Source: a virus
Length of the DNA: 64,000 nucleotides
IMG/VR virus record: IMGVR_UViG_3300032050_000036
Span: 32,001-96,000 of that record
Direction: 5' to 3' (one strand)
Shown one piece after another: positions 15,186 to 63,604 of this stretch (position 1 is the first letter of the stretch; each line of letters begins with the position of its first letter). The notes under the pieces were generated by a model. The model was not told where the DNA came from and made no database searches. It saw only the letters and a list, made by a program, of their open reading frames with translations. The translations under genes and the position numbers were made by a program.

Positions 15186-16007
15186 ATGGTTAATTTTAGA
15201 AATACTACATTTGCAATGCTAGAGAATCATCCAGATCAATCATCTATTGACTGGAAGTTTTGTACAAGAGACAACTATCTTAAGTTTGAGGAAATATTTC
15301 GTAAAAATGTGCTCTTCTTTGATCCATTTTTAGTAGAAGGGTTTTTTGAAAAACCTGACTTTGAAGAATTAAAAGGTATCTTAGAATCAAAAGATGTGCG
15401 TGAAATTGCTTATACTAAGCAAATGAATAAATGGGAAGATGCGGTTGAAATCCCTCAATATTTTTTTGATAAGGCGATTAAACGTACACAAGACCTTCTA
15501 GGCACCAACGATGTAGAGTTAGGATATTATCTATATGCTCATCATCAAATTACTGCTGAAGGACGCAAGCCATTCCTACAGGTTCATCTAGACTGGTCTC
15601 CAGGCTGCTACATGGTTGATCTTCATATCGGTGGTAATCGTGATTGGGGCTTTGTTGCTCACGATAAAGAGTTTATTACCAAGCCAAACGATGCAATTAT
15701 TGTACAGCCAGAACTAGACTTTCATTATCGTCCAGCATGGAATTCAGACGATCCAAATGAAAACTACAAAGTTTTATTTTTCCATCTTGTTCGTAAAGAT
15801 CATTGGAAAAATTTATATGGAGATGGCTTTATTAAAGATGCAGACTTCTTAGCATTTCAGAATCAGAGATTGCATATATGGCAAGAACTTTATGTTAATC
15901 ATGTAATATCAGTTCCTGGTCTACCAGCCCCAGTATTTAGTTCTGATGATGACTTAACAGAAGATGATAAAAGAATTTTTAATGTAGAAAAAAGGGTGGA
16001 AATGTAA
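15186..16007 (+). CDS. Putative 2OG-Fe(II) oxygenase
   Basis: HLD...HYR motifs, lies within the oxygenase cluster. Confidence 0.55.
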   Translation: MVNFRNTTFAMLENHPDQSSIDWKFCTRDNYLKFEEIFRKNVLFFDPFLVEGFFEKPDFEELKGILESKDVREIAYTKQMNKWEDAVEIPQYFFDKAIKRTQDLLGTNDVELGYYLYAHHQITAEGRKPFLQVHLDWSPGCYMVDLHIGGNRDWGFVAHDKEFITKPNDAIIVQPELDFHYRPAWNSDDPNENYKVLFFHLVRKDHWKNLYGDGFIKDADFLAFQNQRLHIWQELYVNHVISVPGLPAPVFSSDDDLTEDDKRIFNVEKRVEM

Positions 16008-16684
16008 TGTTTACTTATGAAAAACTAGGAGATGGATTAATATATTATAAAAATATAATGCAGGATCCATATAAAATAATTGAAGATATAGAATTACTAA
16101 ATAACAAAGTTATTGAAGACTTAGAGAACAGGGTTGCTGGAGCAGAAGAAAGTTCTGCAAAGCCTTGGCATAATTGGGATCATGATCAGGACGATATGCA
16201 TTTACATTTTTGTAAACAAAGATGGCTACCAAGATCAGAAGATATGTCAAAAGATGATATTTATTATCAAGAACACTCCTCTATATCAGATAGATTATTT
16301 TTAGCATTAGACACAAGTTTTGAGCATTACTCAAAAGAACTATATCCTTATGCCTCAAGAAATATAAAAGGCAAAGAAGATAGAATGAGTATTTTAAAAT
16401 ATGAAAAAGCAGGGTATTTGCCTGCACACACAGACCATGGCTCAAGTAGCAGAACACTTTCTGTTGTTTTATATTTAAACGATAACTATGACGGAGGAGA
16501 GATAACATTTCCTCAAGTAGGAAACGGAGTAAAAATAAAGCCAGAGGCTGGAAGTGCAATATTTTTCCCATCAAATTATGTTTTTGTACATGAAGTTTCA
16601 GAGGTTTCAAATGGTATCAGATATGCTTTGCCTAACTGGTATCATAATATGATTAATAAAATATATACGGACGGTACAGAATGA
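16007..16684 (+). CDS. 2OG-Fe(II) oxygenase, prolyl-4-hydroxylase-like
   Basis: HTD, VLYLNDNYDGGE, FPSN..HEV..V..GIRY. Confidence 0.88.
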   Translation: MFTYEKLGDGLIYYKNIMQDPYKIIEDIELLNNKVIEDLENRVAGAEESSAKPWHNWDHDQDDMHLHFCKQRWLPRSEDMSKDDIYYQEHSSISDRLFLALDTSFEHYSKELYPYASRNIKGKEDRMSILKYEKAGYLPAHTDHGSSSRTLSVVLYLNDNYDGGEITFPQVGNGVKIKPEAGSAIFFPSNYVFVHEVSEVSNGIRYALPNWYHNMINKIYTDGTE

Positions 16685-19632: not shown

Positions 19633-20997
19633 ATGGCAAAAATAATTATTTTTGATTTAGATGGGGTTTTAATAGATAGCAAAGATATTCACTATAACGC
19701 ACTAAATAAAGCATTATGTGATATTGATGCTAAATATAAAATATCTTTTGAGGATCATATTAAAATATATAATGGTTTGCCTACTAAAGAAAAACTAAAA
19801 ATACTTTCAGAAAAAACTAATTTAGATAAAAGTACATTTGATATTATTAATAAAAATAAACAAAGTTATACATTCGACATGCTTAACGATGTTTCTGAAG
19901 ATATAGAATTAATAGAGTTATTTAAATTAATTAAAAATAATAATATAAAAATATGTGTTGCTAGTAATAGTATAAGAAAAACAGTTGAACTAATTTTAAC
20001 TAAGTTAAATATTATTGATCTAGTAGATTATATTGTTAGTAATGAAGATGTAAAAAATCCAAAACCATCCCCCGAGATGTATTGGAAGTGCATGTCAGAA
20101 TTCAATACAATACCAAAAGATGTTGTTATATTTGAAGATAGCATAATTGGTAAAATTGCCGTTCTAGATAGTGGTGCCAGCCTTGTTGAGATTAAAGATA
20201 GAAAAGATCTAACCTTAGAAAAAATAAATAATGCTATAAATATTTTAAAATATTCCAAACATTCTGTCTTAAATAAAAAAATAAATATTGTAATACCAAT
20301 GGCTGGAAAAGGTAGCAGATTTTTAGATGCAGGTTTTTCATTTCCAAAACCATTAATAGATATAAATGGTATGCCAATGATAGAGTTAGTTGTAAATAAT
20401 ATTGCACTAGAAGGAAACTATATATTTATAGTAAGAAAAGATCATTATGAAAAATATAATTTGCTTGAAATGTTAACAAGAATTGTTCCCGATTGCAAAA
20501 TTATAACTGTTGACGAGGAGCAAAGCGGGGCAGCATCAACCTGCTTATATGCAAAAAATTACATAAATACAGAGGATCCGTTATTTATTATAAATTCTGA
20601 TCAATATATAGATTGGAATCCTAAAGAATTTTTATACAATAATGTAATAAAAAATTTAGACGGATCAATATTGTTGTTTAAGTCTACTCATCCAAAATGG
20701 TCTTATGCAAAATTAGATGAATTCGGCATGGTAGTAGAAGTTGCCGAAAAGGTAGTTATAAGTGACAATGCTACTGTCGGTGGATATTACTGGGGAAGTG
20801 GACACAATTTTGTTAAATACGCAGAACAAATGATAGAAAAAAATATTCGTGTAAATAATGAATTTTATGTGTGTCCAGTATACAATGAGGCAATAAAAGA
20901 TAACAAAAAAATTGGATCATATTTTATTAATAAAATGTATGGATTGGGCACACCAGAAGATTTAGAAAAGTTTATGAGGTTTTATAATAATGATTAA
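19633..20997 (+). CDS. HAD phosphatase fused to sugar-nucleotidyltransferase
   Basis: FDLDGVL, KPSP and FEDS, followed by IPMAGKGSRF...PKPLI and GLGTPEDL. Confidence 0.85.
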   Translation: MAKIIIFDLDGVLIDSKDIHYNALNKALCDIDAKYKISFEDHIKIYNGLPTKEKLKILSEKTNLDKSTFDIINKNKQSYTFDMLNDVSEDIELIELFKLIKNNNIKICVASNSIRKTVELILTKLNIIDLVDYIVSNEDVKNPKPSPEMYWKCMSEFNTIPKDVVIFEDSIIGKIAVLDSGASLVEIKDRKDLTLEKINNAINILKYSKHSVLNKKINIVIPMAGKGSRFLDAGFSFPKPLIDINGMPMIELVVNNIALEGNYIFIVRKDHYEKYNLLEMLTRIVPDCKIITVDEEQSGAASTCLYAKNYINTEDPLFIINSDQYIDWNPKEFLYNNVIKNLDGSILLFKSTHPKWSYAKLDEFGMVVEVAEKVVISDNATVGGYYWGSGHNFVKYAEQMIEKNIRVNNEFYVCPVYNEAIKDNKKIGSYFINKMYGLGTPEDLEKFMRFYNND

Positions 20998-52743: not shown

Positions 52744-53627
52744 TGGCAGTTATTAAGATTGTTCCTATGCCAGGCGCAAAAGGAGATCAGGGAGATGCAG
52801 GCTCTGTAGGTCCACAAGGTCCTCAAGGAGAAACTGGTGCAACAGGTTCAGCAGGTGCCGATGCTGTATGGTATTACAATGGTGCTTATAATCCAGGTGC
52901 AGCATATGCAGTTGGCGATATAGTTACATATGAAGGACAAACCTGGTATCGCAAAAATGCAAATGGTGGAAATGTTGGAGATACACCATCTGAAGGATTG
53001 TTTTGGGATTTAATTGCAGCAAAAGGCGAACCTGGCTTAAATGGTCTTGAAGGAGAAACTGGTCCACAAGGAGAACAGGGAATTCAAGGTGAACAAGGAC
53101 CACAAGGTTTACAGGGAGAGCAAGGATTGCAAGGAATTCCAGGACCTCAAGGAGAACCTGGATCAATTACAAATTTAAAATTTGGATCATTTTTTGATAC
53201 AACAGTTCAAACTGGCGGATCAATAAAACCATTTGAATTAAACTCAACAGATGTAAGTAATGGAGTTTCTATTGTAGATGGTTCACATATTACAATGACA
53301 ACACTTGGAATTTATAATATTGCATTCTCTGCACAATTACAAAAAACAGGTGGATCTTCTGCAGATATTTATATTTGGTTAAGACATAATGGAGTAGATG
53401 TTCCAGACACTGCAACAATAATTCATATGGCAAACAATAATACATTTAATGTTGCTGCATGGAACTTCTTTGTTGATTGCAATACACTTCCACAAGATTT
53501 TCAGTTAATGTGGTATACAGAATCTACAAGCGTTTCTATTGGGGCAATTAGCGATGCTGTTACTCCAGTTGGAGTTCCTTCTATACCGTCGATTATTTTG
53601 ACAGTAAACAAAGTCGGAGACCTATAA
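52743..53627 (+). CDS. Collagen-like fibre protein with carbohydrate-binding-like insert
   Basis: Gly-X-Y runs; YAVGDIVTYEG module; beta-rich C-terminal domain. Confidence 0.8.
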   Translation: MAVIKIVPMPGAKGDQGDAGSVGPQGPQGETGATGSAGADAVWYYNGAYNPGAAYAVGDIVTYEGQTWYRKNANGGNVGDTPSEGLFWDLIAAKGEPGLNGLEGETGPQGEQGIQGEQGPQGLQGEQGLQGIPGPQGEPGSITNLKFGSFFDTTVQTGGSIKPFELNSTDVSNGVSIVDGSHITMTTLGIYNIAFSAQLQKTGGSSADIYIWLRHNGVDVPDTATIIHMANNNTFNVAAWNFFVDCNTLPQDFQLMWYTESTSVSIGAISDAVTPVGVPSIPSIILTVNKVGDL

Positions 53628-53636
53628 GGTTAATCC

Positions 53637-54356
53637 ATGGCTGTTTCAAAATCCATGGACTTTCCATCAAGTAAAAAATCAAGTTATGCTGCACAAGTTG
53701 TAGAAACTCAAAATACTAATACTGATGTTTTAATTAATTATGTTCCTGTCCCTGGCCCAATGGGACCACAAGGACCTGCTGGGGTACCTGGACCTCAAGG
53801 ACCTGCAGGAAAAGACGGGATTCAGGGACCCAAGGGCGAAAGAGGCATACCTGGTAAAGACGGTCTAAGTTCTTTATCTGTATCTGGACAACAGGCAGGC
53901 TGGGGATCATATTTTAATCAAAACAGAAAAGAAATAAGATTAGGAGCAAATCAGGGAGAAGATGGCTGGGTCAGTGTTTGGGTAGATTCAAAGGGTATCA
54001 ATACAAATGAAAAATATTTACCAGAAGGATGCACCAGCCTTTGGAATGAGCATCAAAGAATGCTTAATTTTCATGGCCTTAAAATAGGATGTCAGGTGTT
54101 TGTAACATATAATTTTGAACTTACTACACATAGCAATAATACAGAGGTTTGGCTTAGAACCTTTTTCCCTAAATCTACCACAGAAATTTCACAATATGTA
54201 GCGTCGTTAAAATATCAATATGTTTATAATATGTATGTTACTCAACAATTTTTTATAGAAGATAGTGCAATGTGGTCTTCTGGAGCGATACCTCAAATTA
54301 GAACTGACTACGACTCCTCATTATTAATGAATTCCATCTACGTTAGCGTGGTATAA
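53637..54356 (+). CDS. Collagen-like fibre protein
   Basis: GPMGPQGPAGVPGPQG Gly-X-Y run. Confidence 0.8.
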   Translation: MAVSKSMDFPSSKKSSYAAQVVETQNTNTDVLINYVPVPGPMGPQGPAGVPGPQGPAGKDGIQGPKGERGIPGKDGLSSLSVSGQQAGWGSYFNQNRKEIRLGANQGEDGWVSVWVDSKGINTNEKYLPEGCTSLWNEHQRMLNFHGLKIGCQVFVTYNFELTTHSNNTEVWLRTFFPKSTTEISQYVASLKYQYVYNMYVTQQFFIEDSAMWSSGAIPQIRTDYDSSLLMNSIYVSVV

Positions 54357-54363
54357 TAATTGC

Positions 54364-54798
54364 ATGGCATTTCCTGGAACATACAATATTTCATACTACA
54401 TGGGGGACACTTACGAGTTTAGGGTATATCCCAAAACAGCAAGTGGAGATGTTTATTCTTTATCTCCATTTGTTTATGATGATGATAACAATCCAGCAAC
54501 TGCTGATTTTGATAGTGCCATTTTTGCTTTTGCAGAAGAAAAAGCAGTAGGAGGTTCAAATCCTCCAGAACCATCGGGCTATCATAAATGTTATGCTAAA
54601 ATTTCTGATGATAAGTCATACATAACTTGTGCAATAAGACCAGAAGATGCAGCATATTTAGATCCTACAAAAACATATGTTTATGATGTACAGGTAAGTA
54701 AGCCAGCAGGTGGTGGAGACTATAAAACAGTTATAACTTTAATGACTGGAAGCATAAGTGTTACAGGTCAGGTTATTATTGCTGAGAATATAGGATAA
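54364..54798 (+). CDS. Virion structural protein
   Basis: Leaderless; GDT...YVYDVQ...TLMTG.I.V. Confidence 0.65.
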   Translation: MAFPGTYNISYYMGDTYEFRVYPKTASGDVYSLSPFVYDDDNNPATADFDSAIFAFAEEKAVGGSNPPEPSGYHKCYAKISDDKSYITCAIRPEDAAYLDPTKTYVYDVQVSKPAGGGDYKTVITLMTGSISVTGQVIIAENIG

Positions 54799-54799
54799 A

Positions 54800-55372
54800 A
54801 TGGCAGAAGTTGTATTAAGTACAGAAGATTTGGTTGTTTTAGGTGGGCCAGATACCATCAATGTTGAAGTAGACTTCGGGCCACAAGGTGATCGTGGTAG
54901 TTTAATATTTGTAGGAAATGGAAAGCCAGATTTAATAGATATTGGGCAAGACCCCAATGTATTTGATCTTTATATAAACCTTCTTAAAACTGATGACGAA
55001 TATTTAATGATTTATCAATATGTAGAATCTTTAGGATCGTTACAGTGGCAAACTTTAACAAAGTTAATTCCTAATACATATGTAACAAATCAAAGCATTA
55101 ATTTTGATACCGTCAATTATTGCTATGTTCCAATTGCATCAATCGTAGATCCTTCATATGTAGGAAATACAGATGCATCTAATTTTAGCGTACAGGTAAC
55201 ATTTGGAACTTCGGCAGGGTATCCAATTGTAAGTTCAATCAAAACAGAAGTTGTCACAGTTAGTGGTATAGAAAATTTAAAAATAACATTTTATGCTAAG
55301 GAATTTGACGGAGCCAATTGGATTGACATAACTGGATCTAGAACGGCTAACCTTCACATTTCGGTGGTATAA
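54800..55372 (+). CDS. Virion structural protein
   Basis: GPQGDRGS; tail module context. Confidence 0.6.
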   Translation: MAEVVLSTEDLVVLGGPDTINVEVDFGPQGDRGSLIFVGNGKPDLIDIGQDPNVFDLYINLLKTDDEYLMIYQYVESLGSLQWQTLTKLIPNTYVTNQSINFDTVNYCYVPIASIVDPSYVGNTDASNFSVQVTFGTSAGYPIVSSIKTEVVTVSGIENLKITFYAKEFDGANWIDITGSRTANLHISVV

Positions 55373-55389
55373 TCTAGGGGGTGATGTAA

Positions 55390-56742
55390 GTGGCAGTTGA
55401 AGATATAGGTAATTTATGGAATACCAAGCAGCCAGGTTATGATGATACGGCTGATATTCAGGCAGCCCTAAAAGCATTTCTGTATGGAAGTTATACTTAT
55501 GACCCTACAAATACAGATCCTACACAACTTCCAAATCCATCATTAGCAAAGCATTTACAAGGTTTGAGTGATAGGTTAACAGACCAGGAAGAACTTGGAA
55601 TAGGTTCTGATTATCTTACACTTGCACAGATTGCAGCATTGTCATCTCCAGAAGACGGATATATTGCTATGGCATCTGACTCTAATGGTGGAGCAGTTGA
55701 ATCTTTATATGCCTCCGCATTTTACACAAATGAGGCACCTACAACAGACATTGTAGATGGAGTTCTCTGGGTAGATAAAGATTCTGATGCACTTGATACT
55801 TATGTTTATAATGAAACAGATGATGAGTGGGTAAGAATAAACGATTTAAAAAATATTATTGCAGCAAAGGGAGATTTGCTTGTTGGAACAGCAGCAGAAG
55901 GTCTAGATAATCTTACAGTTGGTGCAAATGGAACAGTCTTAACTGCAGACAACACTCAGCCACTCGGCATTAAATGGGAAGCACCTTCAGTTTATTCACA
56001 GCCAACACTTGGAACAACAGTAATTGCTTCTGGTGCAACAGTAACTAATGTTAATGGTTTAACAATTAACTCAACAACAATTCCAACATCTAAAACTTTA
56101 GTTGCAACTGATTCAACAGCATATGTTGTGCCACCAATGTCAGGTAATGCAGGAAAATATTTAACAAATGACGGATCAACACCATCATGGGCAACAGTAT
56201 CTTCTTCAAGTGGATTAACTTTAATTACATCTCAAAGTTTTACTAACAGTACATCTGTACAAATTAATAACTGTTTTTCATCAACCTATAGAAATTATAG
56301 AGTTATGTTATCAATAACAGGAATTTCTGCTCAATCAACAAACGTATACTTTAGATATAGTTCTGGAGGAACTCCAAATAGCAGTGCTATTTATTCATTT
56401 ACCGCATTAGATGGCGGACCAACATCATCTCCAACAGCATCTGCTGGAAGAAATCTTACCGCTACACAATTTGAATGCGGATACTATGATCCAGGATACA
56501 GCCCAAACAATCAAATGCCATATTACGCAACTATGGATATTTTTGCTCCGTATATTGGACAATATGAAAAAGGCATGCTTGGATTTAGTTGTTCTACATA
56601 TGCTACTGCCCCAATAAATACCTATGTTAAGTTCTGGTCTGGTTGGTGTTTATCTAATGCATCATTTGATGGATTCCAGATAAGGCCACAAGGCGCAGAT
56701 GGAATTACTGGTATTATTAGGGTCTACGGGTACCAGGATTAG
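55390..56742 (+). CDS. Tail fibre protein
   Basis: LWVD, AKGDLLV, VGANGTVL.AD, GKYLT.DG and terminal IRVYGY. Confidence 0.75.
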   Translation: MAVEDIGNLWNTKQPGYDDTADIQAALKAFLYGSYTYDPTNTDPTQLPNPSLAKHLQGLSDRLTDQEELGIGSDYLTLAQIAALSSPEDGYIAMASDSNGGAVESLYASAFYTNEAPTTDIVDGVLWVDKDSDALDTYVYNETDDEWVRINDLKNIIAAKGDLLVGTAAEGLDNLTVGANGTVLTADNTQPLGIKWEAPSVYSQPTLGTTVIASGATVTNVNGLTINSTTIPTSKTLVATDSTAYVVPPMSGNAGKYLTNDGSTPSWATVSSSSGLTLITSQSFTNSTSVQINNCFSSTYRNYRVMLSITGISAQSTNVYFRYSSGGTPNSSAIYSFTALDGGPTSSPTASAGRNLTATQFECGYYDPGYSPNNQMPYYATMDIFAPYIGQYEKGMLGFSCSTYATAPINTYVKFWSGWCLSNASFDGFQIRPQGADGITGIIRVYGYQD

Positions 56743-56750
56743 GAGATAAC

Positions 56751-56969
56751 ATGACAAATTTAAATGAAACTATTGTTGATGTTGCGAATAATACAGTTAC
56801 TGTTAATGATATATCTGCACAAAAAATTGCAGAACTTGCTTCTGAAGGTGCAAGAATAGAAGAAGAAAGACTTGCAGCAATAGAGGCTAGAAAAAATGCT
56901 AGGGCAGCATTAATTACTAAACTAGGTATTACTGAAGAAGAAGCACAACTTTTATGGGGTGATAATTAA
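56751..56969 (+). CDS. Tail fibre assembly chaperone-like protein
   Basis: KLGITEEEA.LL; follows the fibre gene. Confidence 0.6.
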   Translation: MTNLNETIVDVANNTVTVNDISAQKIAELASEGARIEEERLAAIEARKNARAALITKLGITEEEAQLLWGDN

Positions 56970-57598
56970 TGTCAACAGTTAGTTCAACTAGTAAAGTAGC
57001 ATACATGTATGATCAAACATCAGATACTTGGTATGCAGTTGCTGGTACGGCCAATACAAATGTTGCATATAACTGGCAGGCTGCACATACTTTTGGCTCT
57101 GTTGTAACTGTTAATGATGTTATTCGTGCTAAGGCTGGAGTAAATAGATTTCAAAACTATACCGCCAGAGATGCAGTGATTACTTCTCCAGCAAAAGGGA
57201 CTGTATGCTTTGTTGAGCAAACAAATGGCGGTACTGATATAAACCAACTTCAAATTTATAATGGTACATCATGGGTAGGAATGCTTGATACTGCAACTCT
57301 AAGCACTAAAACTGCTGATTATAACTTAGGTCTTGCAGATGCAGGACAAACATTATTAATTGATTCTACTAGCGATAGAACTGTTACTGTTCCACTCAAT
57401 TCTGCTGTACCGTTCGCAAATGGACAAAGAATAGATGTTGTAAGATTAAATACTGGCAATGTAACATTTGCTGGAGCAGTTGGTGTAACAATTAATAGCA
57501 AAAATTCAAACAAGAAAATTGCTGCAAGGTATTCTGGCGCAACTCTTATCAAATATGATACAGATACCTGGGTACTTATTGGCGATTTGACGGCGTAG
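56969..57598 (+). CDS. Tail fibre-related protein
   Basis: ARDA.I..P..G, YNGTSW, TVP....F..G and W.LIGDL. Confidence 0.7.
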   Translation: MSTVSSTSKVAYMYDQTSDTWYAVAGTANTNVAYNWQAAHTFGSVVTVNDVIRAKAGVNRFQNYTARDAVITSPAKGTVCFVEQTNGGTDINQLQIYNGTSWVGMLDTATLSTKTADYNLGLADAGQTLLIDSTSDRTVTVPLNSAVPFANGQRIDVVRLNTGNVTFAGAVGVTINSKNSNKKIAARYSGATLIKYDTDTWVLIGDLTA

Positions 57599-57606
57599 GT
57601 GATCCA

Positions 57607-59715
57607 ATGCTTGGCTGGCTTGGTAAATGGGCGGGATCCAAAGGAATGGGAAAAATCCCAAACCTTATCGGTTTAACAAAACAACAAGCAAGAGAAACTT
57701 TACAAAACGCTGGATTTAATTATGGACTAGAGAGTGAAGAAGTTCAAGGCAATGAGTCTTTAACAAATAAAGTTAAATCACAAGGCAAAGCACATAATGA
57801 TCTTGTTGATTATGAAACATCAGTAGATTATGTTATTCATACATTTACTTTTACCCCATATTCATTTACACCTACATATTCATTTACCCCTATGACATAT
57901 TCTTTTACACCAGTTTCATATTCGTTTACTCCACAAGTATATTCTTTTACCCCACAAGTATATTCGTTTACACCACAGGTATATTCGTTTACACCACAGG
58001 TATATTCGTTTACACCAATGACTGTAACTTGTGAACCATGTGAAAATTATGGAAATGTATTGGTAATTCCAACATGTAATGGAGAAGATTCTTATGAGGG
58101 ATACTGGCAACCTCAAAGACAAAACTGCTCAGATGGATCAACCGTCGACTGTCCAAATATATTTGTTGGATACGGCAATATTCTTGAGGCTAATTCTACA
58201 TCTTGTGGAGGATCTGGAACTTACTCCTTTACCCCACAAACTTATTCCTTTACACCTTACTCCTTTACGCCTACGCCTTACACATTTACACCTACCTCTA
58301 ACAACTGTCCTTCGCCAGGAGCATGGGGCGATTGGGGTCCTTGCGTAGATGGAGTCCAGAAGAGAACACGTACCAACTATGACGATGTTCCAGGCTGTCC
58401 TCCATTTATTGAAGAAGAGACGCAGTCTTGTACTGGAACTTACTCCTTTACGCCTTACTCATTTACACCTTACTCCTTTACGCCTTACACATTTACACCT
58501 ACCTCTAACAACTGTCCTTCGCCAGGAGCATGGGGCGATTGGGGTCCTTGCGTAGATGGAGTCCAGAAGAGAACACGTACTAACTACGATGATGTTACAG
58601 GATGCCCTCCATTTATCGAAGAAGAGACGCAGTCTTGTGTTGTAGCATACTCCTTTACACCTTACACATTTACACCTACCTCTAACAACTGTCCTGCACC
58701 AGGAGCATGGAGTGCGTGGGGTCCTTGCATAGATGGAGTCCAGAAGAGAACACGTACTAACTACGATGATGTTACAGGATGCCCTCCATTTATCGAAGAA
58801 GAGACTCAGTCTTGTACTGGAACTTACTCCTTTACACCTTACTCATTTACTCCTTATTCCTTTACTCCTTATTCCTTTACACCAACAGCATATTCCTTTA
58901 CTCCTTATTCCTTTACACCAGTTTCTAATGGCTGTCCTGCACCAGGAGCATGGAGTGCGTGGGGTCCTTGCGTAGATGGAGTTCAAACAAGAACACGTAC
59001 TAACTATGATGATCTTCCAGGCTGTCCTCCATTTATCGAAGAAGAGACTCAGTCTTGTGTTGTAGCATACTCCTTTACACCTTACTCCTTTACACCTTAC
59101 TCCTTTACACCTTACTCATTTACTCCTTATTCCTTTACACCAATGACATATTCGTTCACACCTTATTCATTCACGCCTTATTCATTCACGCCTTATTCAT
59201 TCACGCCTTATTCATTCACGCCTTATTCATTCACGCCTACATATGCATTTACACCAGTTTCTAATGGCTGTCCTGCACCAGGAGCATGGAGTGCGTGGGG
59301 TCCTTGCGTAGGTGGAGTGCAGACAAGAACACGTACTAACTACGACGATCTTCCAGGATGTCCTTCATTTATTGAAGAAGAAACACAGTCTTGTGTTGTA
59401 GCATATTCCTTTACTCCTTATTCCTTCACACCTTATGCCTTTACACCTACATATGCATTTACACCAATGACATATTCATTTACACCTTATTCCTTTACAC
59501 CAGTAGCATATTCATTCACACCTTATTCCTTTACACCAATGACATATTCATTTACACCTTATTCCTTTACACCAACAGCATACTCATTCACGCCTACATA
59601 TGCATTTACACCAACAAGTTCGGGCTGTGCTTGTGCTGGACTAGATAATTGTACTGGCGCATGCTGTGTAGAATGCGGTGGTTTCCTAAGTGGAGGGGAA
59701 TGTGTAGGATGCTAA
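57607..59715 (+). CDS. PASTA plus five thrombospondin-type-1-like repeats plus YSFTP repeats
   Basis: IPNLIGLT..QA...L..AG (PASTA); five C..PGAW..WGPC..G.Q.RTR....GC....EETQSC units; about 50 Y(S/T/A)FTP repeats. Confidence 0.8.
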   Translation: MLGWLGKWAGSKGMGKIPNLIGLTKQQARETLQNAGFNYGLESEEVQGNESLTNKVKSQGKAHNDLVDYETSVDYVIHTFTFTPYSFTPTYSFTPMTYSFTPVSYSFTPQVYSFTPQVYSFTPQVYSFTPQVYSFTPMTVTCEPCENYGNVLVIPTCNGEDSYEGYWQPQRQNCSDGSTVDCPNIFVGYGNILEANSTSCGGSGTYSFTPQTYSFTPYSFTPTPYTFTPTSNNCPSPGAWGDWGPCVDGVQKRTRTNYDDVPGCPPFIEEETQSCTGTYSFTPYSFTPYSFTPYTFTPTSNNCPSPGAWGDWGPCVDGVQKRTRTNYDDVTGCPPFIEEETQSCVVAYSFTPYTFTPTSNNCPAPGAWSAWGPCIDGVQKRTRTNYDDVTGCPPFIEEETQSCTGTYSFTPYSFTPYSFTPYSFTPTAYSFTPYSFTPVSNGCPAPGAWSAWGPCVDGVQTRTRTNYDDLPGCPPFIEEETQSCVVAYSFTPYSFTPYSFTPYSFTPYSFTPMTYSFTPYSFTPYSFTPYSFTPYSFTPYSFTPTYAFTPVSNGCPAPGAWSAWGPCVGGVQTRTRTNYDDLPGCPSFIEEETQSCVVAYSFTPYSFTPYAFTPTYAFTPMTYSFTPYSFTPVAYSFTPYSFTPMTYSFTPYSFTPTAYSFTPTYAFTPTSSGCACAGLDNCTGACCVECGGFLSGGECVGC
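57844..59613 (+). repeat. 15-21-nt coding repeats (YSFTP) interleaved with five 126-nt TSR-like units
   Basis: Units start at 58306, 58513, 58690, 58933 and 59269. Confidence 0.9.
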
Positions 59716-59734
59716 AATATAAAAAGGAGAAAAA

Positions 59735-59929
59735 ATGACAATTCGTAAATATGTTTTTATTATTGATGGAGAGGTAGGGCCAGACTTGCAATTTGATGAT
59801 TCTAAAAGTGAAACAAATGCAGCACTTGCTGCAGCAATGTCTTCTGATCCAAAAGTAATAGAAATACCATTAGACTCGCCAGTAACAATTGGATGGAGAT
59901 GGAATGGTACAGAATTTGTACAAGAATAA
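59735..59929 (+). CDS. Small fibre-associated protein
   Basis: AAGGAG RBS; IGWRWNGTEF. Confidence 0.65.
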   Translation: MTIRKYVFIIDGEVGPDLQFDDSKSETNAALAAAMSSDPKVIEIPLDSPVTIGWRWNGTEFVQE

Positions 59930-59935
59930 TTTAAA

Positions 59936-59969
59936 TGATGGGAGAGAGTTTTTTACCCTCTCCCAATCA
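59936..59969. terminator. Hairpin between convergent genes
   Basis: TGATGGGAGAG...CTCTCCCAATCA. Confidence 0.65.
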
Positions 59970-59971
59970 TA

Positions 59972-60535
59972 TTAGTTTGGAAAGTTTAACATTAACTCTT
60001 TAGTTCTTGGTGTAATGCCTTTCCAGGCAATCCAATTTTCACCGCCGTTTGACATGTGAAATGCAACCTGAGCATTTAATACTGGATTAAACAACTCATA
60101 GTTTGACTCTAAATTAAACTTATCTCTACGTTCAGGACCTAGGTCACCAATCATATTTATTTGAAATAAGCCATAAGAACTATCTTTAGTTCTTTTGCTA
60201 AGGTTTAGCGCCATTGGTCTACCGCCAGATTCTTTCTTGGCAATAGCCCAAGCCTCCCTTAGTTTTTGACCTTCAAAGCCTACTAGGCGTAGTAGATTTT
60301 TTAGGTCTTTGTCAGATAGATTTACAGCATTTTTGTATTTTTCTAACTGATCTTCTTTAGCCTCAGAAACACTTTTGGCCACTTTCGTGGCCTCTATTGT
60401 TTCTTGCAGCACGACAGGCGTACTGTCGTTTAATCGGTTTTCAGAAGCATTAGCCAAGTTTGACCAAACGGAAAACATAGCCAATATGCTGAGTGTTCCA
60501 ATGATGTTCCTATTATTATACATAAAGTTAATCAT
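59972..60535 (-). CDS. Secreted lytic transglycosylase (lysozyme-like)
   Basis: AWAIAKKESGG, SYGLFQIN, L.NP..NA..A and W..W. Confidence 0.85.
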   Translation of the reverse strand: MINFMYNNRNIIGTLSILAMFSVWSNLANASENRLNDSTPVVLQETIEATKVAKSVSEAKEDQLEKYKNAVNLSDKDLKNLLRLVGFEGQKLREAWAIAKKESGGRPMALNLSKRTKDSSYGLFQINMIGDLGPERRDKFNLESNYELFNPVLNAQVAFHMSNGGENWIAWKGITPRTKELMLNFPN

Positions 60536-60642
60536 AGTTTCCTCCTTAGAAACGTAATGACACCTTGTTAAAGGGTGTCATATTACTTCTTAGTATAACA
60601 CAATTTAAAGACCATAGTCAAATAATGCTATAATTGATTTCT

Positions 60643-61158
60643 ATGGCCGAAATAACTAATAATTATGGACTCACATATCCAGAATCTTCTGATCCTGTAA
60701 ATGTACATAATGATATTAAAAAATTAGCAGATGATGTTGATGATGCTATTTCTTCTCTTGATGCCTCAAATGTGCGGGTAAAAGTAATAAATAACTCAGG
60801 ATCAACTATAGGTGCAGCAAAACCAGTATATGCAGTCGGACATGAGAACAATAAAACAGAAATTGAATTATTTACATCATCATTATCTGATAACTACCCT
60901 TTACTTGGTTTAACAAAAACATCTTTAATAAATGGAGCAAGTGGAGAAGTTGTTGTTGCTGGAGTTTTAACAAATGTAAATACAAGCAGTTTTTCAGACG
61001 GAGAACTATTATATGTAGACTCTTCTGGCGTTCTTACAACCACTATAACAGGTGGTGCAGTAGGAATAGTCGCAGTATCAAGTACAACAAATGGAGTAAT
61101 TGTTGTTCAGGCAAAAGGCAACGGTACTTGGGGAGCACTAAAGAAAGGACTATCATAG
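60643..61158 (+). CDS. Virion structural protein
   Basis: YGLTYP...D.VNV..D...LA..VD; G.V...G. Confidence 0.65.
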   Translation: MAEITNNYGLTYPESSDPVNVHNDIKKLADDVDDAISSLDASNVRVKVINNSGSTIGAAKPVYAVGHENNKTEIELFTSSLSDNYPLLGLTKTSLINGASGEVVVAGVLTNVNTSSFSDGELLYVDSSGVLTTTITGGAVGIVAVSSTTNGVIVVQAKGNGTWGALKKGLS

Positions 61159-62189
61159 TGAAAAAAAAGACAGCACTTGTTTTTGGAGCAGGCGGTTTTA
61201 TAGGATCACATATGGTCAAAAGACTAAAACAAGAAAATTATTGGGTTCGTGGTGTTGATCTAAAATATCCAGAATTTGAAAAGTCACATGCAGATGAATT
61301 TATAGTTAGAGATCTCTCTGATTATGAAAATGTAGAAAAGGTTATTCAATTTAAAGGATATGCAGGTAATTTTTATTATAATGTTTTTCCAAAATTTATA
61401 GATTCTTTTGATGAAATTTATCAATTTGCAGCAGATATGGGCGGAGCAGGATATATCTTTACTGGAGATAATGATGCAAATATTATGGAAAATTCTGGAT
61501 TAATAAATTTAAATCTTTTAAGAGCACAGAATAAATTAAATATTAAAAAAAATATTAATAAAACAAAAATTTTTTATAGTAGTTCTGCATGCATTTATCC
61601 ATCTCACATTCAAGAATCAGAAAATAATAATGGATTAAAAGAAGCAGATGCATATCCAGCCAACCCTGATAGCGAATACGGCTGGGAAAAACTTTTTAGT
61701 GAAAGACTATTTTTATCATTTAATAAAAATTATAATATACCAATAGCAATAGCACGATACCATAATATTTATGGTCCAGGCGGTACTTGGCAGGGGGGTA
61801 AAGAAAAGGCCCCTGCTGCAATATGTAGAAAAGTTATACAAGCAAAAGATACAGTAGAAGTTTGGGGAAATGGAAAGCAGACCAGATCATTTTTATATAT
61901 TGATGATTGTATAGATGCTACAAGGAAATTAATGCAGTCTAACTTTACTGGCCCTATTAACATTGGCTCTGAAGAGATGGTTAGTATTAATGAGTTAGTT
62001 GACATAGCATGTTCTATAGAAAATAAAAAAATTATTAAAAAACATGTAGTTGGTCCAGTGGGAGTTCGTGGAAGAAATTCTAACAATGACTTAATTAGAT
62101 CTGAATTAAATTGGGACTATAAAACTTCTTTAAGGGATGGAATTAAAAAAACATATGACTGGATCAAACAACAAAACCAAATATTCTAA
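61158..62189 (+). CDS. NAD-dependent epimerase, GDP-mannose 3,5-epimerase-like
   Basis: GAGGFIG, AADMGGAG, YSSSACIYP, YGWEKL and GGKEKAPAAICRK. Confidence 0.88.
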   Translation: MKKKTALVFGAGGFIGSHMVKRLKQENYWVRGVDLKYPEFEKSHADEFIVRDLSDYENVEKVIQFKGYAGNFYYNVFPKFIDSFDEIYQFAADMGGAGYIFTGDNDANIMENSGLINLNLLRAQNKLNIKKNINKTKIFYSSSACIYPSHIQESENNNGLKEADAYPANPDSEYGWEKLFSERLFLSFNKNYNIPIAIARYHNIYGPGGTWQGGKEKAPAAICRKVIQAKDTVEVWGNGKQTRSFLYIDDCIDATRKLMQSNFTGPINIGSEEMVSINELVDIACSIENKKIIKKHVVGPVGVRGRNSNNDLIRSELNWDYKTSLRDGIKKTYDWIKQQNQIF

Positions 62190-63207
62190 TTTTATATTCT
62201 ATAAACTACATCACGCTGGTTTAATAAACAGGTTATATAGTTTACAATGTGCAATTGGAATATCACATATAATGAATAGGCAATTAGTTTTATATAACCT
62301 TAAAGACAGAAATGGAAAATATTTAGATGATCCATCTGTACACTATATAAAAAATTATAATTTATCTTATGGAGCAAAAAGTAATATTATTAATAATATT
62401 GAATATACAAAATTTTTTGATTTAATAGATTATGATGAAGAAAAAATTTTTGATAAAATTAACTATTACACAATTTCAAAATTTTATGATAATGAATATA
62501 CCTATACACATCCACTACATAATTCTTTTATAACTGTTTCAGAAACCTCTGAAGATAAAAATTTATTTAACGCTTTTGAAATTGATTTAACAAAAGATGA
62601 ACCATATCATTTTAAAGGCGACAACTTATCCAACTATTCTACATTATTTTTAAATAGAACAAAAGAATTAGACATTGCTTTGTCTAGTACAATGTTTAAA
62701 AAAGAATACCATGAATTTGCAGAATTGGTTAGTAAAAGTTTGGGTAAATATAACTGTATCCATGTTAGGCTTACTGATCATAAACATAACTTTAATGTTA
62801 CAGAAAATAATTTAATTGATGCAATAGAAAATTTAAACAATTTACCAATTATAGTTTGTACAGATGAGCCAGAACACGAAATGTTTAAAAATAAAAATAT
62901 TAAACTTATAGATGATATTATTGTAAACAATTTTTCAAAAGAGTTCAAAGATTTATCTATCAACTCAGAGATAGTTTTTGGATTGGTATCACTTTTAATT
63001 GCATCAAAATCTCAAGATTTTATAGGAACATATTTTAGTACATTCACATCATATATTCATAGGCAACACTACCAAAGAGACATAATCAAGCCTGCAAAAT
63101 TTTTAGGAAGGTCTGATTTATCTGAGTCAGGATCACCATGGTCTTGGGTAGGCATAGGAAAGCAAGGAATAGCAAGAGACTGGCCAGAGTCAAGACTTAT
63201 GATATAA
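62155..63207 (+). CDS. O-fucosyltransferase family protein (GT-B, POFUT-like)
   Basis: GLINR...A......NRQLVL, IHVRLTD, IVCTDE and FIGT..STFT..I. Confidence 0.75.
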   Translation: MTGSNNKTKYSNFIFYKLHHAGLINRLYSLQCAIGISHIMNRQLVLYNLKDRNGKYLDDPSVHYIKNYNLSYGAKSNIINNIEYTKFFDLIDYDEEKIFDKINYYTISKFYDNEYTYTHPLHNSFITVSETSEDKNLFNAFEIDLTKDEPYHFKGDNLSNYSTLFLNRTKELDIALSSTMFKKEYHEFAELVSKSLGKYNCIHVRLTDHKHNFNVTENNLIDAIENLNNLPIIVCTDEPEHEMFKNKNIKLIDDIIVNNFSKEFKDLSINSEIVFGLVSLLIASKSQDFIGTYFSTFTSYIHRQHYQRDIIKPAKFLGRSDLSESGSPWSWVGIGKQGIARDWPESRLMI

Positions 63208-63214
63208 TTCCATT

Positions 63215-63604
63215 ATGGCTACCTTTCGAAATCAAACTACAGATAGTTATGCACTAGGCTCAACTCCACCAGAAATAAGATGGACTATAGTTAGAGGAGA
63301 CTCTGCAGCATTTAGAGTTTATGTTACAGATGACGAAAGAAATCCACTACTCATGGAAGATTGGCAAGTTGATATGGACATATATCGTCCATCTACAGAT
63401 GAGGTTGTTTTATCCTTAGAACCACAACCAATTGAATTTCAAGATAGTGAAGGTAGTTTTACTGTTTCTCTGACATCAGTGCAGTCTGAAATTTTAGAAA
63501 CAGGAGATGTTTTTGATATACAACTTACAGAACTTAATTCTGGCACCAGAGTTTGGACGGTAGCCAAAGGTTCAATGGTTATTATTGAAGACATAACAGA
63601 TTAA
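63215..63604 (+). CDS. Virion structural protein
   Basis: Leaderless; VRGDS...FDIQ...WTV..G....EDIT; paralogue of 52345. Confidence 0.65.
   Translation: MATFRNQTTDSYALGSTPPEIRWTIVRGDSAAFRVYVTDDERNPLLMEDWQVDMDIYRPSTDEVVLSLEPQPIEFQDSEGSFTVSLTSVQSEILETGDVFDIQLTELNSGTRVWTVAKGSMVIIEDITD

What the first reader, a model, noticed from the sequence alone, without database searches (positions are those of the whole stretch)
57607..63207. Eukaryote-like protein glycosylation module: TSR/YSFTP protein, GDP-Man 3,5-epimerase and O-fucosyltransferase
Seen: a tail-module protein with five thrombospondin-type-1-like repeats and about 50 Ser/Thr-rich repeats. About 1.4 kb downstream, among structural genes, lies an overlapping pair encoding a GME-like epimerase and an O-FucT-family transferase. 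Known: POFUT2 O-fucosylates TSRs in animals and apicomplexans; GME makes GDP-L-galactose, which fucosyltransferases can accept in place of GDP-L-fucose. Inference: the phage encodes donor synthesis, transferase and substrate for L-Gal/L-Fuc O-glycosylation of a virion fibre. Caveat: the canonical C-x-x-S/T-C acceptor site is absent (WGPCVDG), so the acceptors would be TQSC or the YSFTP Ser/Thr residues.
Basis: partly seen in the sequence, partly recalled or inferred. Interest (0 to 1): 0.9.

Follow-up and report, generated by a model that had tools for sequence, protein, structure and literature searches.

The report
Phage tail-fibre L-sugar glycosylation cassette
A widespread uncultured freshwater phage carries, among its tail-fibre genes, an enzyme pair that probably makes an unusual L-sugar donor and attaches it, most likely to the phage's own repeat-rich fibre proteins; the target is unproven, and the link to the fibre's thrombospondin-like domains is not supported.

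Summary
All three parts of the observation are real. The 702-aa protein (57607-59715) has an N-terminal PASTA domain, 48 Y[SAT]FTP pentapeptides and five 42-aa units that are true thrombospondin type-1 (TSR) homologues of a 4-Cys subtype. The 61128-62189 product is a GDP-mannose 3,5-epimerase (GME) homologue with its catalytic residues conserved. The 62137-63207 product is a soluble GT-B fucosyltransferase-superfamily enzyme whose nearest solved relative, by profile and by fold, is POFUT2.

The epimerase and transferase form a conserved pair. They lie adjacent or within about 1 kb in 42 other viral contigs, in two gene orders and at two insertion points, always inside the tail-fibre module and near hypervariable proline-containing repeat fibre genes. 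Relatives add P4H-type oxygenases, a methyltransferase and further fucosyltransferase-like genes.

The TSR-POFUT2 analogy fails. The acceptor motif is absent. Cassette-bearing relatives lack TSRs. A TSR-rich 120-kb virus lacks the cassette, and one TSR/FTFTP relative lacks it at the syntenic site.

The best reading (about 0.45) is an accessory cassette that decorates virion fibre stalks with L-galactose or L-gulose. Host-envelope glycan modification is the main rival. This scan has noted similar cassettes before on other DNA (e1-5356317, e1-3460068). No experiment exists.

The parts
57607..59715 (+). Fibre-module protein P0001 (702 aa): PASTA domain, Y[SAT]FTP spacer repeats, five TSR-like units, Cys-rich C-terminal tail. 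Candidate acceptor.
   Evidence: Near-identical relatives have 4 rather than 5 TSR units and 35-41 pentapeptides.
57652..57783 (+). PASTA domain (aa 16-59)
   Evidence: Pfam PF03793, E 8.9e-6, 26 bits against a cut-off of 23.2.
58306..58431 (+). TSR-like unit 1 (aa 234-275)
58513..58638 (+). TSR-like unit 2 (aa 303-344)
58690..58815 (+). TSR-like unit 3 (aa 362-403)
58933..59058 (+). TSR-like unit 4 (aa 443-484)
59269..59394 (+). TSR-like unit 5 (aa 555-596)
   Evidence: This unit gives the best Pfam TSP_1 stretch, aa 560-591.
59972..60535 (-). SLT-type lysozyme (187 aa). A conserved backbone gene that marks the two insertion sites of the cassette.
   Evidence: Pfam SLT_3, E 4.9e-15. A 196-aa homologue on the minus strand is present in the relatives.
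60634..61158 (+). 174-aa protein with a weak match to phage cement protein; overlaps the start of the epimerase ORF.
   Evidence: Pfam Phage_cement_2, E 4.6e-5, 24.2 bits against a cut-off of 24.
61128..62189 (+). GDP-mannose 3,5-epimerase homologue (P0002). The likely start is GTG 61161.
62137..63207 (+). Soluble GT-B fucosyltransferase-superfamily glycosyltransferase (P0003), PF10250-like, with POFUT2 as its nearest solved structure.
63215..63604 (+). 129-aa backbone structural-module gene (phrog_1084) directly after the cassette.
   Evidence: It is conserved in relatives with and without the cassette.
16007..16684 (+). P4H-type 2OG-Fe(II) oxygenase. It is the homologue of the oxygenase that sits beside the cassette in relatives, so it may be connected.
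   Evidence: Pfam PF13640, E 5.7e-17; jackhmmer E 2.1e-52 to the island oxygenase of L012. Paralogues lie at 11182-11658, 14615-15178 and 49112-49792(-).
15186..16007 (+). Homologue of the unnamed 'u194' gene that lies between the oxygenase and the transferase in relatives.
   Evidence: jackhmmer E 2.7e-55. No Pfam match.
19633..20997 (+). Fusion of a HAD (beta-phosphoglucomutase-like) domain and an NDP-sugar pyrophosphorylase. It could supply a sugar nucleotide, but the sugar is unknown.

Best explanation
The epimerase and transferase genes form an accessory, horizontally mobile two-gene cassette in the tail-fibre module of a WhiB-encoding freshwater phage whose host is probably an actinobacterium.

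Proposed mechanism:
1. The epimerase converts GDP-D-mannose into GDP-L-galactose and/or GDP-L-gulose. The GDP-mannose comes from the host, or possibly from the phage's own mutase/pyrophosphorylase fusion.
2. The translationally coupled, soluble fucosyltransferase-like GT-B enzyme uses that GDP-L-hexose, a 6-hydroxy analogue of GDP-L-fucose.
3. It transfers the sugar in the cytoplasm, late in infection, onto a phage structural protein.

The most likely acceptors are the extended proline-containing spacer repeats (YSFTP here) of the two fibre proteins: 57607-59715, and the fn3/YSFTP protein about 5 kb beyond the window end. This would give a mucin- or extensin-like sugar-coated stalk. The TSR-like units are probably binding or structural modules, not the acceptor.

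Shown here: the identities of the three proteins, and the conserved pairing and position of the cassette. Inferred: the donor sugar, a protein acceptor, and which residues are modified.
For: Enzyme identities:
- GME identity with conserved catalytic residues.
- The transferase family keeps the fucosyltransferase motifs: invariant R211 and D214 in HxRxxD, and S301 in the G-T-x-x-S-T-F motif.
- It matches PF10250 in 57 of 84 members and POFUT2 by profile at E 2.6e-11.
- By fold it matches only fucosyltransferases at Z 12-16, then drops to Z 8.4.

Pairing:
- All 18 IMG/VR loci found through the transferase have a GME gene overlapping it or within about 0.6 kb.
- Among GME genes at 70% identity or more, 24 further distinct contigs have a strong family transferase within about 1.1 kb.
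- The pair persists in both orders, GME>GT after the SLT gene and GT>GME before it.

Context:
- Collagen-like tail-fibre genes lie upstream and tail-fibre genes downstream, on the same strand with overlapping or abutting ORFs.
- Every locus with enough flank has a hypervariable Pro-containing repeat protein nearby, and a second fibre protein carries the same repeat type.
- Relatives add protein- or glycan-tailoring genes to the island: a PF13640 P4H-type oxygenase, a JmjC/cupin protein, an FkbM methyltransferase and GT11-like proteins.

Other points:
- None of the three proteins has a hydrophobic segment reaching TM level.
- The cassette is AT-rich (GT 25.7% and GME 30.4% GC, against 35.3% for the genome), as expected for an acquired island.
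- The complete genome lacks the entry enzymes of DNA glycosylation pathways.
Against: - No direct evidence of any glycan on any protein.
- All cassette-bearing loci belong to one phage lineage, so the shared neighbourhood may reflect descent rather than function. Tail-fibre regions are also common landing sites for unrelated accessory genes.
- A relative with the same type of fibre (PASTA, F[ST]FTP repeats, one TSR) lacks the cassette at the syntenic site, so the fibre does not need it.
- Repeats in some cassette-bearing relatives (PPVA, PV) have no hydroxyl residue.
- PF10250 and the fucosyltransferase fold include many enzymes that act on glycans rather than proteins.
- The same enzyme kinds in cyanophage S-SCSM1 are read in the literature as host cell-wall modification genes (PMC9602691).
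Confidence: 0.45

Rival explanations
1. Host-envelope modification. The cassette adds L-galactose or L-gulose to a host cell-wall or surface glycan, through a lipid-linked or cytoplasmic precursor. This could mask receptors, block superinfection or keep progeny from sticking to debris, as 'LPS/cell-wall' auxiliary genes of cyanophages are usually read.
For: - Cyanophage S-SCSM1 carries GME together with O-FucT, alpha-1,2-FucT and NodZ genes annotated as cell-wall modification (PMC9602691).
- At least 588 viral GME hits exist, and most of those fetched at 63-69% identity have no P0003-type transferase next to them.
- The fucosyltransferase fold mostly acts on glycans: NodZ, FUT8 and AtFUT1 score Z 12-13.
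- The cassette is accessory and compositionally foreign.
Against: - The enzymes are soluble, and the island has no flippase, polymerase or polyprenyl-phosphate transferase.
- The cassette is always embedded in the late tail-fibre operon, on the fibre strand.
- The nearest solved relatives are the two protein O-fucosyltransferases, not glycan fucosyltransferases.
- P4H-type and JmjC-type oxygenases in the islands of relatives have no obvious role in wall glycans.
Confidence: 0.3
2. Hydroxyproline-linked glycan, a sub-case of virion glycosylation. P4H-type oxygenases hydroxylate Pro in the repeats. Another enzyme starts the glycan, and the POFUT-like enzyme either adds L-Gal to Hyp or extends the chain, as fucose is added in the Skp1 Hyp-glycan of protists or arabinose/galactose on plant extensins.
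For: - Pro is the only residue common to all repeat types: YSFTP, PVAPVTP, PPVA, PV, PT and FFPP.
- A PF13640 oxygenase sits next to the transferase in most GT>GME islands.
- The window's genome has four PF13640 paralogues and two homologues of the island's 'u194' gene.
Against: - PF13640 oxygenases are very common in aquatic phages and have unknown substrates.
- In the window they lie 45 kb from the cassette, in the early/metabolic region.
- The proposed GT60-like ORF (13737-14585) has no Pfam support.
- Some PV-repeat loci lack an adjacent oxygenase.
Confidence: 0.15
3. One reading: the POFUT2-like enzyme recognises the folded TSR-like units and O-glycosylates them.
For: - POFUT2 is the best solved match by profile (E 2.6e-11 against 1.6e-3 for POFUT1) and by fold (Z 15.9 against 13.8).
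- The TSR units are real homologues and lie 1.4 kb upstream.
Against: - The POFUT2 acceptor motif C-x-x-S/T-C-x-x-G is absent; the units read W-G-P-C-V-D-G-V-Q.
- Cassette-bearing relatives have YSFTP, PVAP or PT repeat fibres without TSRs.
- A 95%-complete 120-kb virus with 5-6 TSRs in one protein has neither the transferase nor GME.
- The profile match to POFUT2 covers only the donor-binding C-terminal domain, positions 162-323.
Confidence: 0.07
4. DNA hypermodification: a transferase-plus-epimerase pair glycosylates hydroxymethylated bases in phage DNA.
For: - Adjacent transferase/epimerase pairs in phages do glycosylate 5hmC in DNA (bioRxiv 10.1101/2023.12.21.572611).
- The genome has several 2OG oxygenases.
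Against: - The complete genome has no C5-cytosine methyltransferase, no ThyA-type hydroxymethylase and no Tet/JBP match above cut-off: best 15.7 bits against a cut-off of 34.9.
- The paper's text never mentions GDP or fucose; it aligns its GT-B enzymes with UDP-glucose-bound T4 beta-GT and its GT-A enzymes with TarP and JGT. The enzyme here is fucosyltransferase-like.
- The cassette lies in the tail-fibre module.
Confidence: 0.03

Closest known systems
Virion glycosylation in mycobacteriophages (Che8 and relatives; Freeman et al. 2023, recalled from memory; the phrase is cited in papers listed)
   Same: Actinobacteriophage-encoded soluble glycosyltransferases proposed or shown to O-glycosylate the phage's own structural proteins in the cytoplasm. 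The genes are accessory.
   Different: - Different transferase families.
- No dedicated GDP-L-sugar epimerase.
- The acceptors there are capsid and tail-tube C-termini, not repeat-rich fibre stalks.
- Here nothing has been shown experimentally.
[quoted passage not shown]
   Same: A phage genome encoding GME together with O-FucT-family, alpha-1,2-FucT and NodZ-type fucosyltransferases. An S-SCSM1 fucosyltransferase is a fold match to P0003.
   Different: - There they form a large multi-gene cluster in a T4-like cyanophage and are interpreted as host-surface genes.
- Here it is a minimal two-gene, translationally coupled cassette inside the tail-fibre operon of an actinophage-like virus.
Metazoan/apicomplexan POFUT2 (GT68) acting on thrombospondin type-1 repeats (PDB 4ap5, 5foe, 8ay1)
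   Same: GT-B fucosyltransferase fold with HxR and S-T-F donor motifs, and the best structural and profile match. A TSR-bearing protein is encoded nearby.
   Different: - Only 12-14% identity.
- The profile match is limited to the donor domain.
- The acceptor motif is absent from the phage TSRs.
- No co-occurrence of transferase and TSR across viruses.
- A cytoplasmic rather than an ER setting.
- The donor is probably GDP-L-Gal or GDP-L-Gul.
Plant GDP-mannose 3,5-epimerase (Arabidopsis GME, PDB 2c59) and the bacterial GME of Methylacidiphilum (Gevaert et al. 2019, cited in PMC9602691)
   Same: Full-length homology at E 1.8e-84, an NAD-binding GxxGxxG motif, and aligned Cys/Tyr/Lys/Lys catalytic positions.
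   Different: - Two insertions of about 18 and 6 residues relative to the plant enzyme.
- Viral, and paired with a transferase.
- The product ratio (L-Gal against L-Gul) is unknown.
Chlorovirus PBCV-1 virus-encoded glycosylation and prolyl 4-hydroxylase (recalled from memory)
   Same: A virus that supplies its own GDP-sugar enzymes, glycosyltransferases and a P4H acting on proline-rich repeats.
   Different: - A eukaryotic giant virus.
- N-linked capsid glycans.
- Different enzyme set (GMD/GMER rather than GME).
Complement C6-C9 type TSRs (PDB 3ojy, 6h03)
   Same: The phage units match these best at E 2.5e-10. They share the pattern C...WSxWSxC..G.Q.R.R....C.....C without the extra C-S-x-T-C loop.
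   Different: - 42 aa with two Trp.
- Invariant R-T-R-T.
- Encoded in a phage fibre between pentapeptide spacers.

Membership tests
GDP-mannose 3,5-epimerase (extended SDR) | Full-length similarity to characterised GME, well separated from other sugar-nucleotide SDRs | tested here: met
   2c59 at E 1.8e-84 over residues 18-349; the next non-GME SDR scores 3.5e-25. PHROG nucleotide-sugar epimerase at E 1.9e-81.
GDP-mannose 3,5-epimerase (extended SDR) | NAD-binding GxxGxxG and the catalytic Cys / Tyr-x-x-x-Lys / Lys positions of Arabidopsis GME | tested here: met
   GAGGFIG at 20-26. Cys155 in S-S-A-C-I-Y-P, Tyr184 and Lys188, and Lys227 in E-K-A-P-A-A align with identical residues in 2c59. The Arabidopsis residue numbering is from memory.
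GDP-mannose 3,5-epimerase (extended SDR) | Conversion of GDP-D-mannose to GDP-L-galactose or GDP-L-gulose | not testable with these tools
   Needs an enzyme assay.
PF10250 O-FucT / fucosyltransferase GT-B superfamily (GT65, GT68, GT23, GT11, GT37) | Pfam gathering score for PF10250 | tested here: inconclusive
   P0003 itself scores 16.2 bits against a cut-off of 31.5. However, 57 of 84 aligned homologues match PF10250 at E 0.01 or better, with a best E of 1.3e-10.
PF10250 O-FucT / fucosyltransferase GT-B superfamily (GT65, GT68, GT23, GT11, GT37) | Two-Rossmann GT-B fold most similar to fucosyltransferases | tested here: met
   Model pLDDT 92.7. VIA Z-scores: POFUT2 15.9, POFUT1 13.8, AtFUT1 13.4, NodZ 13.2, FUT8 12.6, and the next fold (GT9) 8.4. 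The listed Foldseek hits (E <= 2.2e-3) are all fucosyltransferases.
PF10250 O-FucT / fucosyltransferase GT-B superfamily (GT65, GT68, GT23, GT11, GT37) | Conserved donor-binding motifs (H-x-R..D and G-T-x-x-S-T-F) | tested here: met
   R211, D214, F295 and S301 are invariant in 84 sequences. They align to G-V-H-L-R-R-K-D and G-T-S-V-S-T-F of human POFUT2.
Protein O-fucosyltransferase 2 (GT68) / TSR system | Acceptor consensus C-x-x-S/T-C-x-x-G in the TSR | tested here: not met
   All five units read C-[VI]-[DG]-G-V-Q. The second Cys of the motif is missing, and the same holds in 12 TSR units of other viruses.
Protein O-fucosyltransferase 2 (GT68) / TSR system | Transferase and TSR substrate occur together | tested here: not met
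   Cassette-bearing relatives lack TSRs. The TSR-rich virus G001 (95% complete) lacks both the transferase and GME. The TSR-bearing relative L103 lacks the cassette at the syntenic site.
Protein O-fucosyltransferase 2 (GT68) / TSR system | Catalytic base equivalent to POFUT2 Glu54, and an N-domain acceptor cleft | not tested
   The profile match covers only the C-terminal domain.
Thrombospondin type-1 repeat (Pfam TSP_1) | Sequence match above the curated threshold and to solved TSRs | tested here: met
   34.9 bits against 21.6. Unit profile against the PDB: C8alpha 2.5e-10, C8beta 3e-8, C7 6e-8, R-spondin-2, MIC2, UNC5B and F-spondin.
Thrombospondin type-1 repeat (Pfam TSP_1) | Trp ladder (WxxWxxW), Arg ladder (RxRxR) and six Cys | tested here: inconclusive
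   W9, W12, R22, R24 and four Cys are invariant. There are only two Trp and two disulfide-capable pairs, so this is a short 4-Cys variant as in some complement TSRs.
Thrombospondin type-1 repeat (Pfam TSP_1) | Three-stranded layered fold | not tested
Phage virion glycosylation (mycobacteriophage type) | Glycan demonstrated on a structural protein and dependent on phage transferases | not testable with these tools
   The phage is uncultured, and only context evidence is available.
Phage DNA glycosylation pathways (5hmC/5hmU plus transferase, with or without an epimerase) | A C5-methyltransferase or ThyA-like hydroxymethylase plus a TET/JBP dioxygenase in the genome | tested here: not met
   PF00145 none, PF00303 none, and PF12851 best 15.7 bits against a cut-off of 34.9, in a 100%-complete genome.

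The most novel reading that the evidence does not exclude
A family of abundant freshwater actinophage-like viruses builds extensin- or mucin-like tail-fibre stalks by eukaryote-style post-translational chemistry. A POFUT-like enzyme would transfer L-galactose or L-gulose from a phage-made GDP-L-sugar directly onto protein: Ser/Thr of YSFTP-type repeats, or hydroxyproline made by the phage's P4H-type oxygenases. Transferase subfamilies would track the repeat chemistry (aromatic-S/T-F-T-P with GME>GT, and PVAP/PT/PV repeats with oxygenase plus GT>GME). I know of no earlier report of protein-linked L-Gal/L-Gul glycosylation encoded by a bacterial virus.
Probability: 0.25. Interest if true: 0.8.

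Novelty: new variant of a known kind. Interest (0 to 1): 0.55.

Why it matters
Phage virion glycosylation is known from only a few cultured actinophages, and its chemistry and role are barely explored. This cassette would add three things:
- a dedicated L-sugar donor pathway;
- a transferase whose nearest solved relatives are the animal protein O-fucosyltransferases;
- repeat-rich fibre stalks as likely targets.

The phage lineage is recovered from many freshwater metagenomes, in at least 12 studies. If true, it bears on how phages tune adsorption, resist proteases or avoid non-productive binding. It would also provide compact enzymes for L-galactosylation or L-gulosylation.

The negative result is useful too. 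The TSR/POFUT2 pairing is a coincidence of neighbourhood, not a conserved system.

Tried and rejected
- A single-sequence AF2 model of the transferase was useless (pLDDT 32). The 84-sequence alignment fixed this.
- The search for related loci failed with the wide alignment and with P0003 alone. It worked with a 5-sequence alignment.
- The genome-contig scan found no close relative of the transferase in 185,579 prokaryote genomes, but this is pattern-limited. GenBank phages gave no tblastn hit for the transferase and no DNA match for the region.
- I could therefore inspect no gene context for the ENA/Logan homologues, and could run no docking test of transferase with TSR or YSFTP.
- Metatranscriptome contigs match pieces of the repeat gene, the SLT gene and the genes after 63236 exactly. 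None lay on 62014-62877 and almost none (one run, depth 0.56) on 62878-63165. Being contigs, this says nothing about expression of the transferase.
- The promoter and terminator scan was not above shuffled expectation.
I did not fold it.
- The listing of cluster members gave no informative names, apart from an Aphanothece protein of 775-797 aa, one record of which NCBI names a nucleotidyltransferase family protein.
- The Atlas look-ups gave leads only: 'd290' of relatives is GT11-like and 'u194' is near 2OG oxygenases.
- DNA glycosylation was considered and rejected.

Full report
**Setting**

The window is bases 32001-96000 of a complete 113,498-bp IMG/VR virus record with direct terminal repeats. 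Overall GC is 35.3%. The genome encodes a WhiB regulator at 19296-19628. Its capsid protease is about 57% identical to those of Streptomyces and Rhodococcus phages. The host is therefore probably an actinobacterium.

The finding's stretch is present almost complete (89-94% of sampled words) in 16 freshwater or related metagenome runs from at least 12 studies. The phage is therefore common in lakes.

*Repeat protein.* ORF 57607-59715 gives a 702-aa protein with these parts:
- an N-terminal PASTA domain (E 8.9e-6);
- 48 Y[SAT]FTP pentapeptides, 41 of them exactly YSFTP, separated by 0-2 residue spacers;
- a Cys-rich segment at aa 142-200;
- five nearly identical 42-aa four-Cys units;
- a Cys-rich tail.

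The DNA shows the matching tandem arrays. Pfam TSP_1 is passed at 34.9 bits against a cut-off of 21.6. A profile of 17 such units, five from here and twelve from other viral contigs, hits solved TSRs of complement C8alpha, C8beta and C7, R-spondin-2, Toxoplasma MIC2, UNC5B and F-spondin, down to E 2.5e-10. These are genuine TSR homologues of a short subtype. They have two Trp, an invariant R-T-R-T and four Cys. They lack the C-S-x-T-C loop that carries the POFUT2 site.

*Epimerase.* ORF 61128-62189 is a GME homologue: 2c59 at E 1.8e-84, with the next SDR at 3.5e-25. The NAD motif and the Cys/Tyr/Lys/Lys catalytic positions are conserved. Its real start is probably GTG 61161.

*Transferase.* ORF 62137-63207 overlaps the epimerase gene.
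- Alone it only brushes PF10250.
- It has 232 homologues among 1.84 billion representative proteins.
- 57 of 84 aligned homologues match PF10250.
- The family profile hits human POFUT2 at E 2.6e-11 and POFUT1 at 1.6e-3.
- A pLDDT-92.7 model aligns to POFUT2 at Z 15.9, POFUT1 13.8, AtFUT1 13.4, NodZ 13.2 and FUT8 12.6, then falls to Z 8.4 (Foldseek).
- The family-invariant residues are R211 and D214 (H-x-R-x-x-D) and F295 and S301 (G-T-x-x-S-T-F), which are the donor-binding motifs of the fucosyltransferase superfamily.
- No protein of the three has a membrane-like segment.

**Surroundings**

Upstream (52743-57598) lie collagen-like tail-fibre and minor-tail genes. Between the repeat protein and the epimerase lie a minus-strand SLT lysozyme and a 174-aa cement-like protein. 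Downstream come small backbone genes, a 606-aa fibre or decoration protein, a 651-aa tail fibre with a deacetylase-like domain, and a 382-aa protein with 27 YSFTP-type repeats (27 matches to [YF][SAT]F[TVA]P) and a Cys-rich end. These are followed by RNR, portal and protease. The cassette is much more AT-rich than its neighbours: GT 25.7% and GME 30.4% GC.

**Related loci: the epimerase-transferase link is strong**

- A pattern scan of IMG/VR with close homologues of the transferase gave 18 loci. Every one has a GME gene overlapping the transferase or within about 0.6 kb.
- The reverse scan with the epimerase gave at least 588 viral hits.
- Among the fetched loci with GME at 70% identity or more, 24 further distinct contigs carry a strong family transferase (E below 1e-15, mostly below 1e-82) within about 1.1 kb.
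- The pair exists in two arrangements at two insertion points. GME>GT lies after the SLT gene, as here. GT>GME lies before it, directly behind the repeat fibre gene.
- Four loci replace the P0003-type gene with a 315-319-aa protein, which matches GT11 weakly where tested, followed in three of them by a 245-aa protein with a weak GT8 match.
- More distant viral GMEs (63-69% identity) sit in other, larger viruses without this transferase.

Two genes that stay together through rearrangement and relocation almost certainly work together. The simplest chemistry is that a fucosyltransferase-like enzyme uses the GME product, since GDP-L-galactose differs from GDP-L-fucose only at C6.

**Related loci: the link to the repeat protein is circumstantial**

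In every locus with enough flank, a hypervariable Pro-containing repeat protein lies a few kb away. The repeat differs by lineage: YSFTP/YTFTP/FTFTP, PVAPVTP, PPVA, PV, PT or FFPP. A second fibre protein downstream uses the same repeat type as the first in the same phage.

GME>GT loci go with aromatic-S/T-F-T-P repeats. GT>GME loci go with PVAP/PT/PV repeats, and most of those have a PF13640 (P4H-type) 2OG oxygenase and an unnamed 'u194' gene beside the transferase. Some also have a JmjC/cupin protein, an FkbM methyltransferase and a GT11-like protein.

This is what a protein hydroxylation and glycosylation island would look like, and Pro is the only residue common to all repeats. The pattern, however, amounts to about two evolutionary events within one phage lineage, so it is not independent statistical support.

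The window's own genome keeps four PF13640 oxygenases and two 'u194' homologues elsewhere. It also has a HAD-mutase/NDP-sugar-pyrophosphorylase fusion and an Asp/Arg beta-hydroxylase homologue.

**The TSR-POFUT2 analogy does not survive**

- The acceptor motif is missing.
- Most cassette-bearing relatives have no TSR.
- An unrelated, 95%-complete 120-kb virus with 5-6 TSRs in one protein has neither gene.
- A close relative whose fibre has PASTA, F[ST]FTP repeats, one TSR and a Hint-like end shows the backbone genes in order with nothing inserted where the cassette sits here. That record is only a 20-kb fragment.

The cassette is therefore accessory, and the fibre does not depend on it.

**Rivals**

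Host-envelope modification is the standard reading of such genes in cyanophages. S-SCSM1 has GME, an O-FucT, an alpha-1,2-FucT and NodZ (PMC9602691), and one of its fucosyltransferases is a fold match. I cannot exclude it.

Four points argue against it: the operon position, the absence of any membrane-step gene nearby, the oxygenases in relatives' islands, and the closer similarity to protein O-FucTs than to glycan FucTs.

DNA glycosylation by transferase/epimerase pairs is real in other phages (10.1101/2023.12.21.572611). This complete genome, however, lacks a C5-methyltransferase, a ThyA-type enzyme and a TET/JBP oxygenase above cut-off.

**Comparison with known systems and novelty**

The components are known kinds: GME, the fucosyltransferase superfamily and TSR. 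Phage virion glycosylation is known in mycobacteriophages (from memory; cited in papers). GME plus FucT genes have been annotated in a cyanophage.

The new elements are:
- the compact, conserved GME/POFUT-like pair embedded in tail-fibre modules of a widespread freshwater lineage;
- its association with hypervariable Pro-rich fibre stalks and P4H-type oxygenases;
- genuine TSR domains in a phage fibre.

Earlier reports of this scan described similar cassettes on other DNA (e1-5356317, e1-3460068). My results agree with them, but they were obtained independently here.

**Verdict**

My confidences are:

| Claim | Confidence |
|---|---|
| Epimerase and transferase work together | about 0.9 |
| Donor is a GME product | about 0.7 |
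| A virion protein is the acceptor | about 0.45-0.5 |
| The YSFTP-type spacers are the site | about 0.35 |
| The TSR units are the site | under 0.1 |

Noticed in passing
G000 100692-101840 (about 4.7 kb beyond the window end; L002:4893-6041): A second structural protein (382 aa) with Ser/Thr-rich N-terminal domains, 27 YSFTP-type repeats and a Cys-rich C-terminus. Pfam finds no domain in it; related proteins from other samples carry PF00041 (fn3). In relatives the two fibre proteins of one phage always share the same repeat type (YSFTP with YSFTP, FFPP with FFPP), which suggests concerted evolution or a shared partner.
   Followed up: partly
L008:3690-5276 and 15322-16716; L017:6243-8555; L103:496-2250; P0159: Several homologous fibre proteins end in a roughly 150-aa domain that begins after the repeats with a Cys and ends in V-V-H-N-S or similar. 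It looks like a Hint/intein-like autoprocessing domain. The window's protein has a Cys-rich tail instead.
   Followed up: no
L006:2941-4806; L014:5757-8567; L017:6243-8555: Relatives carry repeated roughly 30-aa four-Cys mini-domains (pattern C-x-D-L-S-x5-C-x2-C-G-G-x-W/Y...G-E-C) between the proline repeats, in place of TSR units. The small disulfide domains are therefore swapped between lineages.
   Followed up: no
window 11182-11658, 14615-15178, 16007-16684, 49112-49792(-): Four PF13640 (P4H-type) 2OG-Fe(II) oxygenase paralogues in one phage genome.
   Followed up: partly
window 19633-20997; 21432-22022; 22019-22780: A fused HAD (beta-phosphoglucomutase-like) and NDP-sugar pyrophosphorylase protein, an Asp/Arg beta-hydroxylase (PF05118) homologue, and an APS-kinase/cytidylyltransferase-like protein lie together just after the WhiB gene.
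   Followed up: partly
window 19296-19628: A WhiB-family regulator (43 bits against a cut-off of 23.6), pointing to an actinobacterial host despite the 35% GC of the phage.
   Followed up: partly
L100:10001-11668; L101:10001-11761; L102:9587-10633 (proteins P0205, P0209, P0217 and others): An unrelated group of viral proteins beginning M-Y-P-N-Q-Y-C carries 2-6 TSR units of the same 4-Cys subtype, plus Ig-like spacers. TSR domains are thus recurrent in environmental phage proteins.
   Followed up: partly
P0154, P0155, P0156: Relatives of the repeat protein at 78-99% identity, from other samples, have 4 instead of 5 TSR units and 35-41 instead of 48 pentapeptides. The arrays expand and contract between strains.
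   Followed up: partly
L008:5295-5537 and homologues; window 49794-49994(-); G000 101889-102548: A small six-Cys protein (DUF6171, about 80 aa) sits at the edge of the glycosylation island in most relatives. It has two homologues in this genome, one of them as the C-terminal part of a 219-aa protein.
   Followed up: no
window 10116-11207: A 363-aa trypsin-like serine protease gene lies just upstream of the oxygenase array.
   Followed up: no
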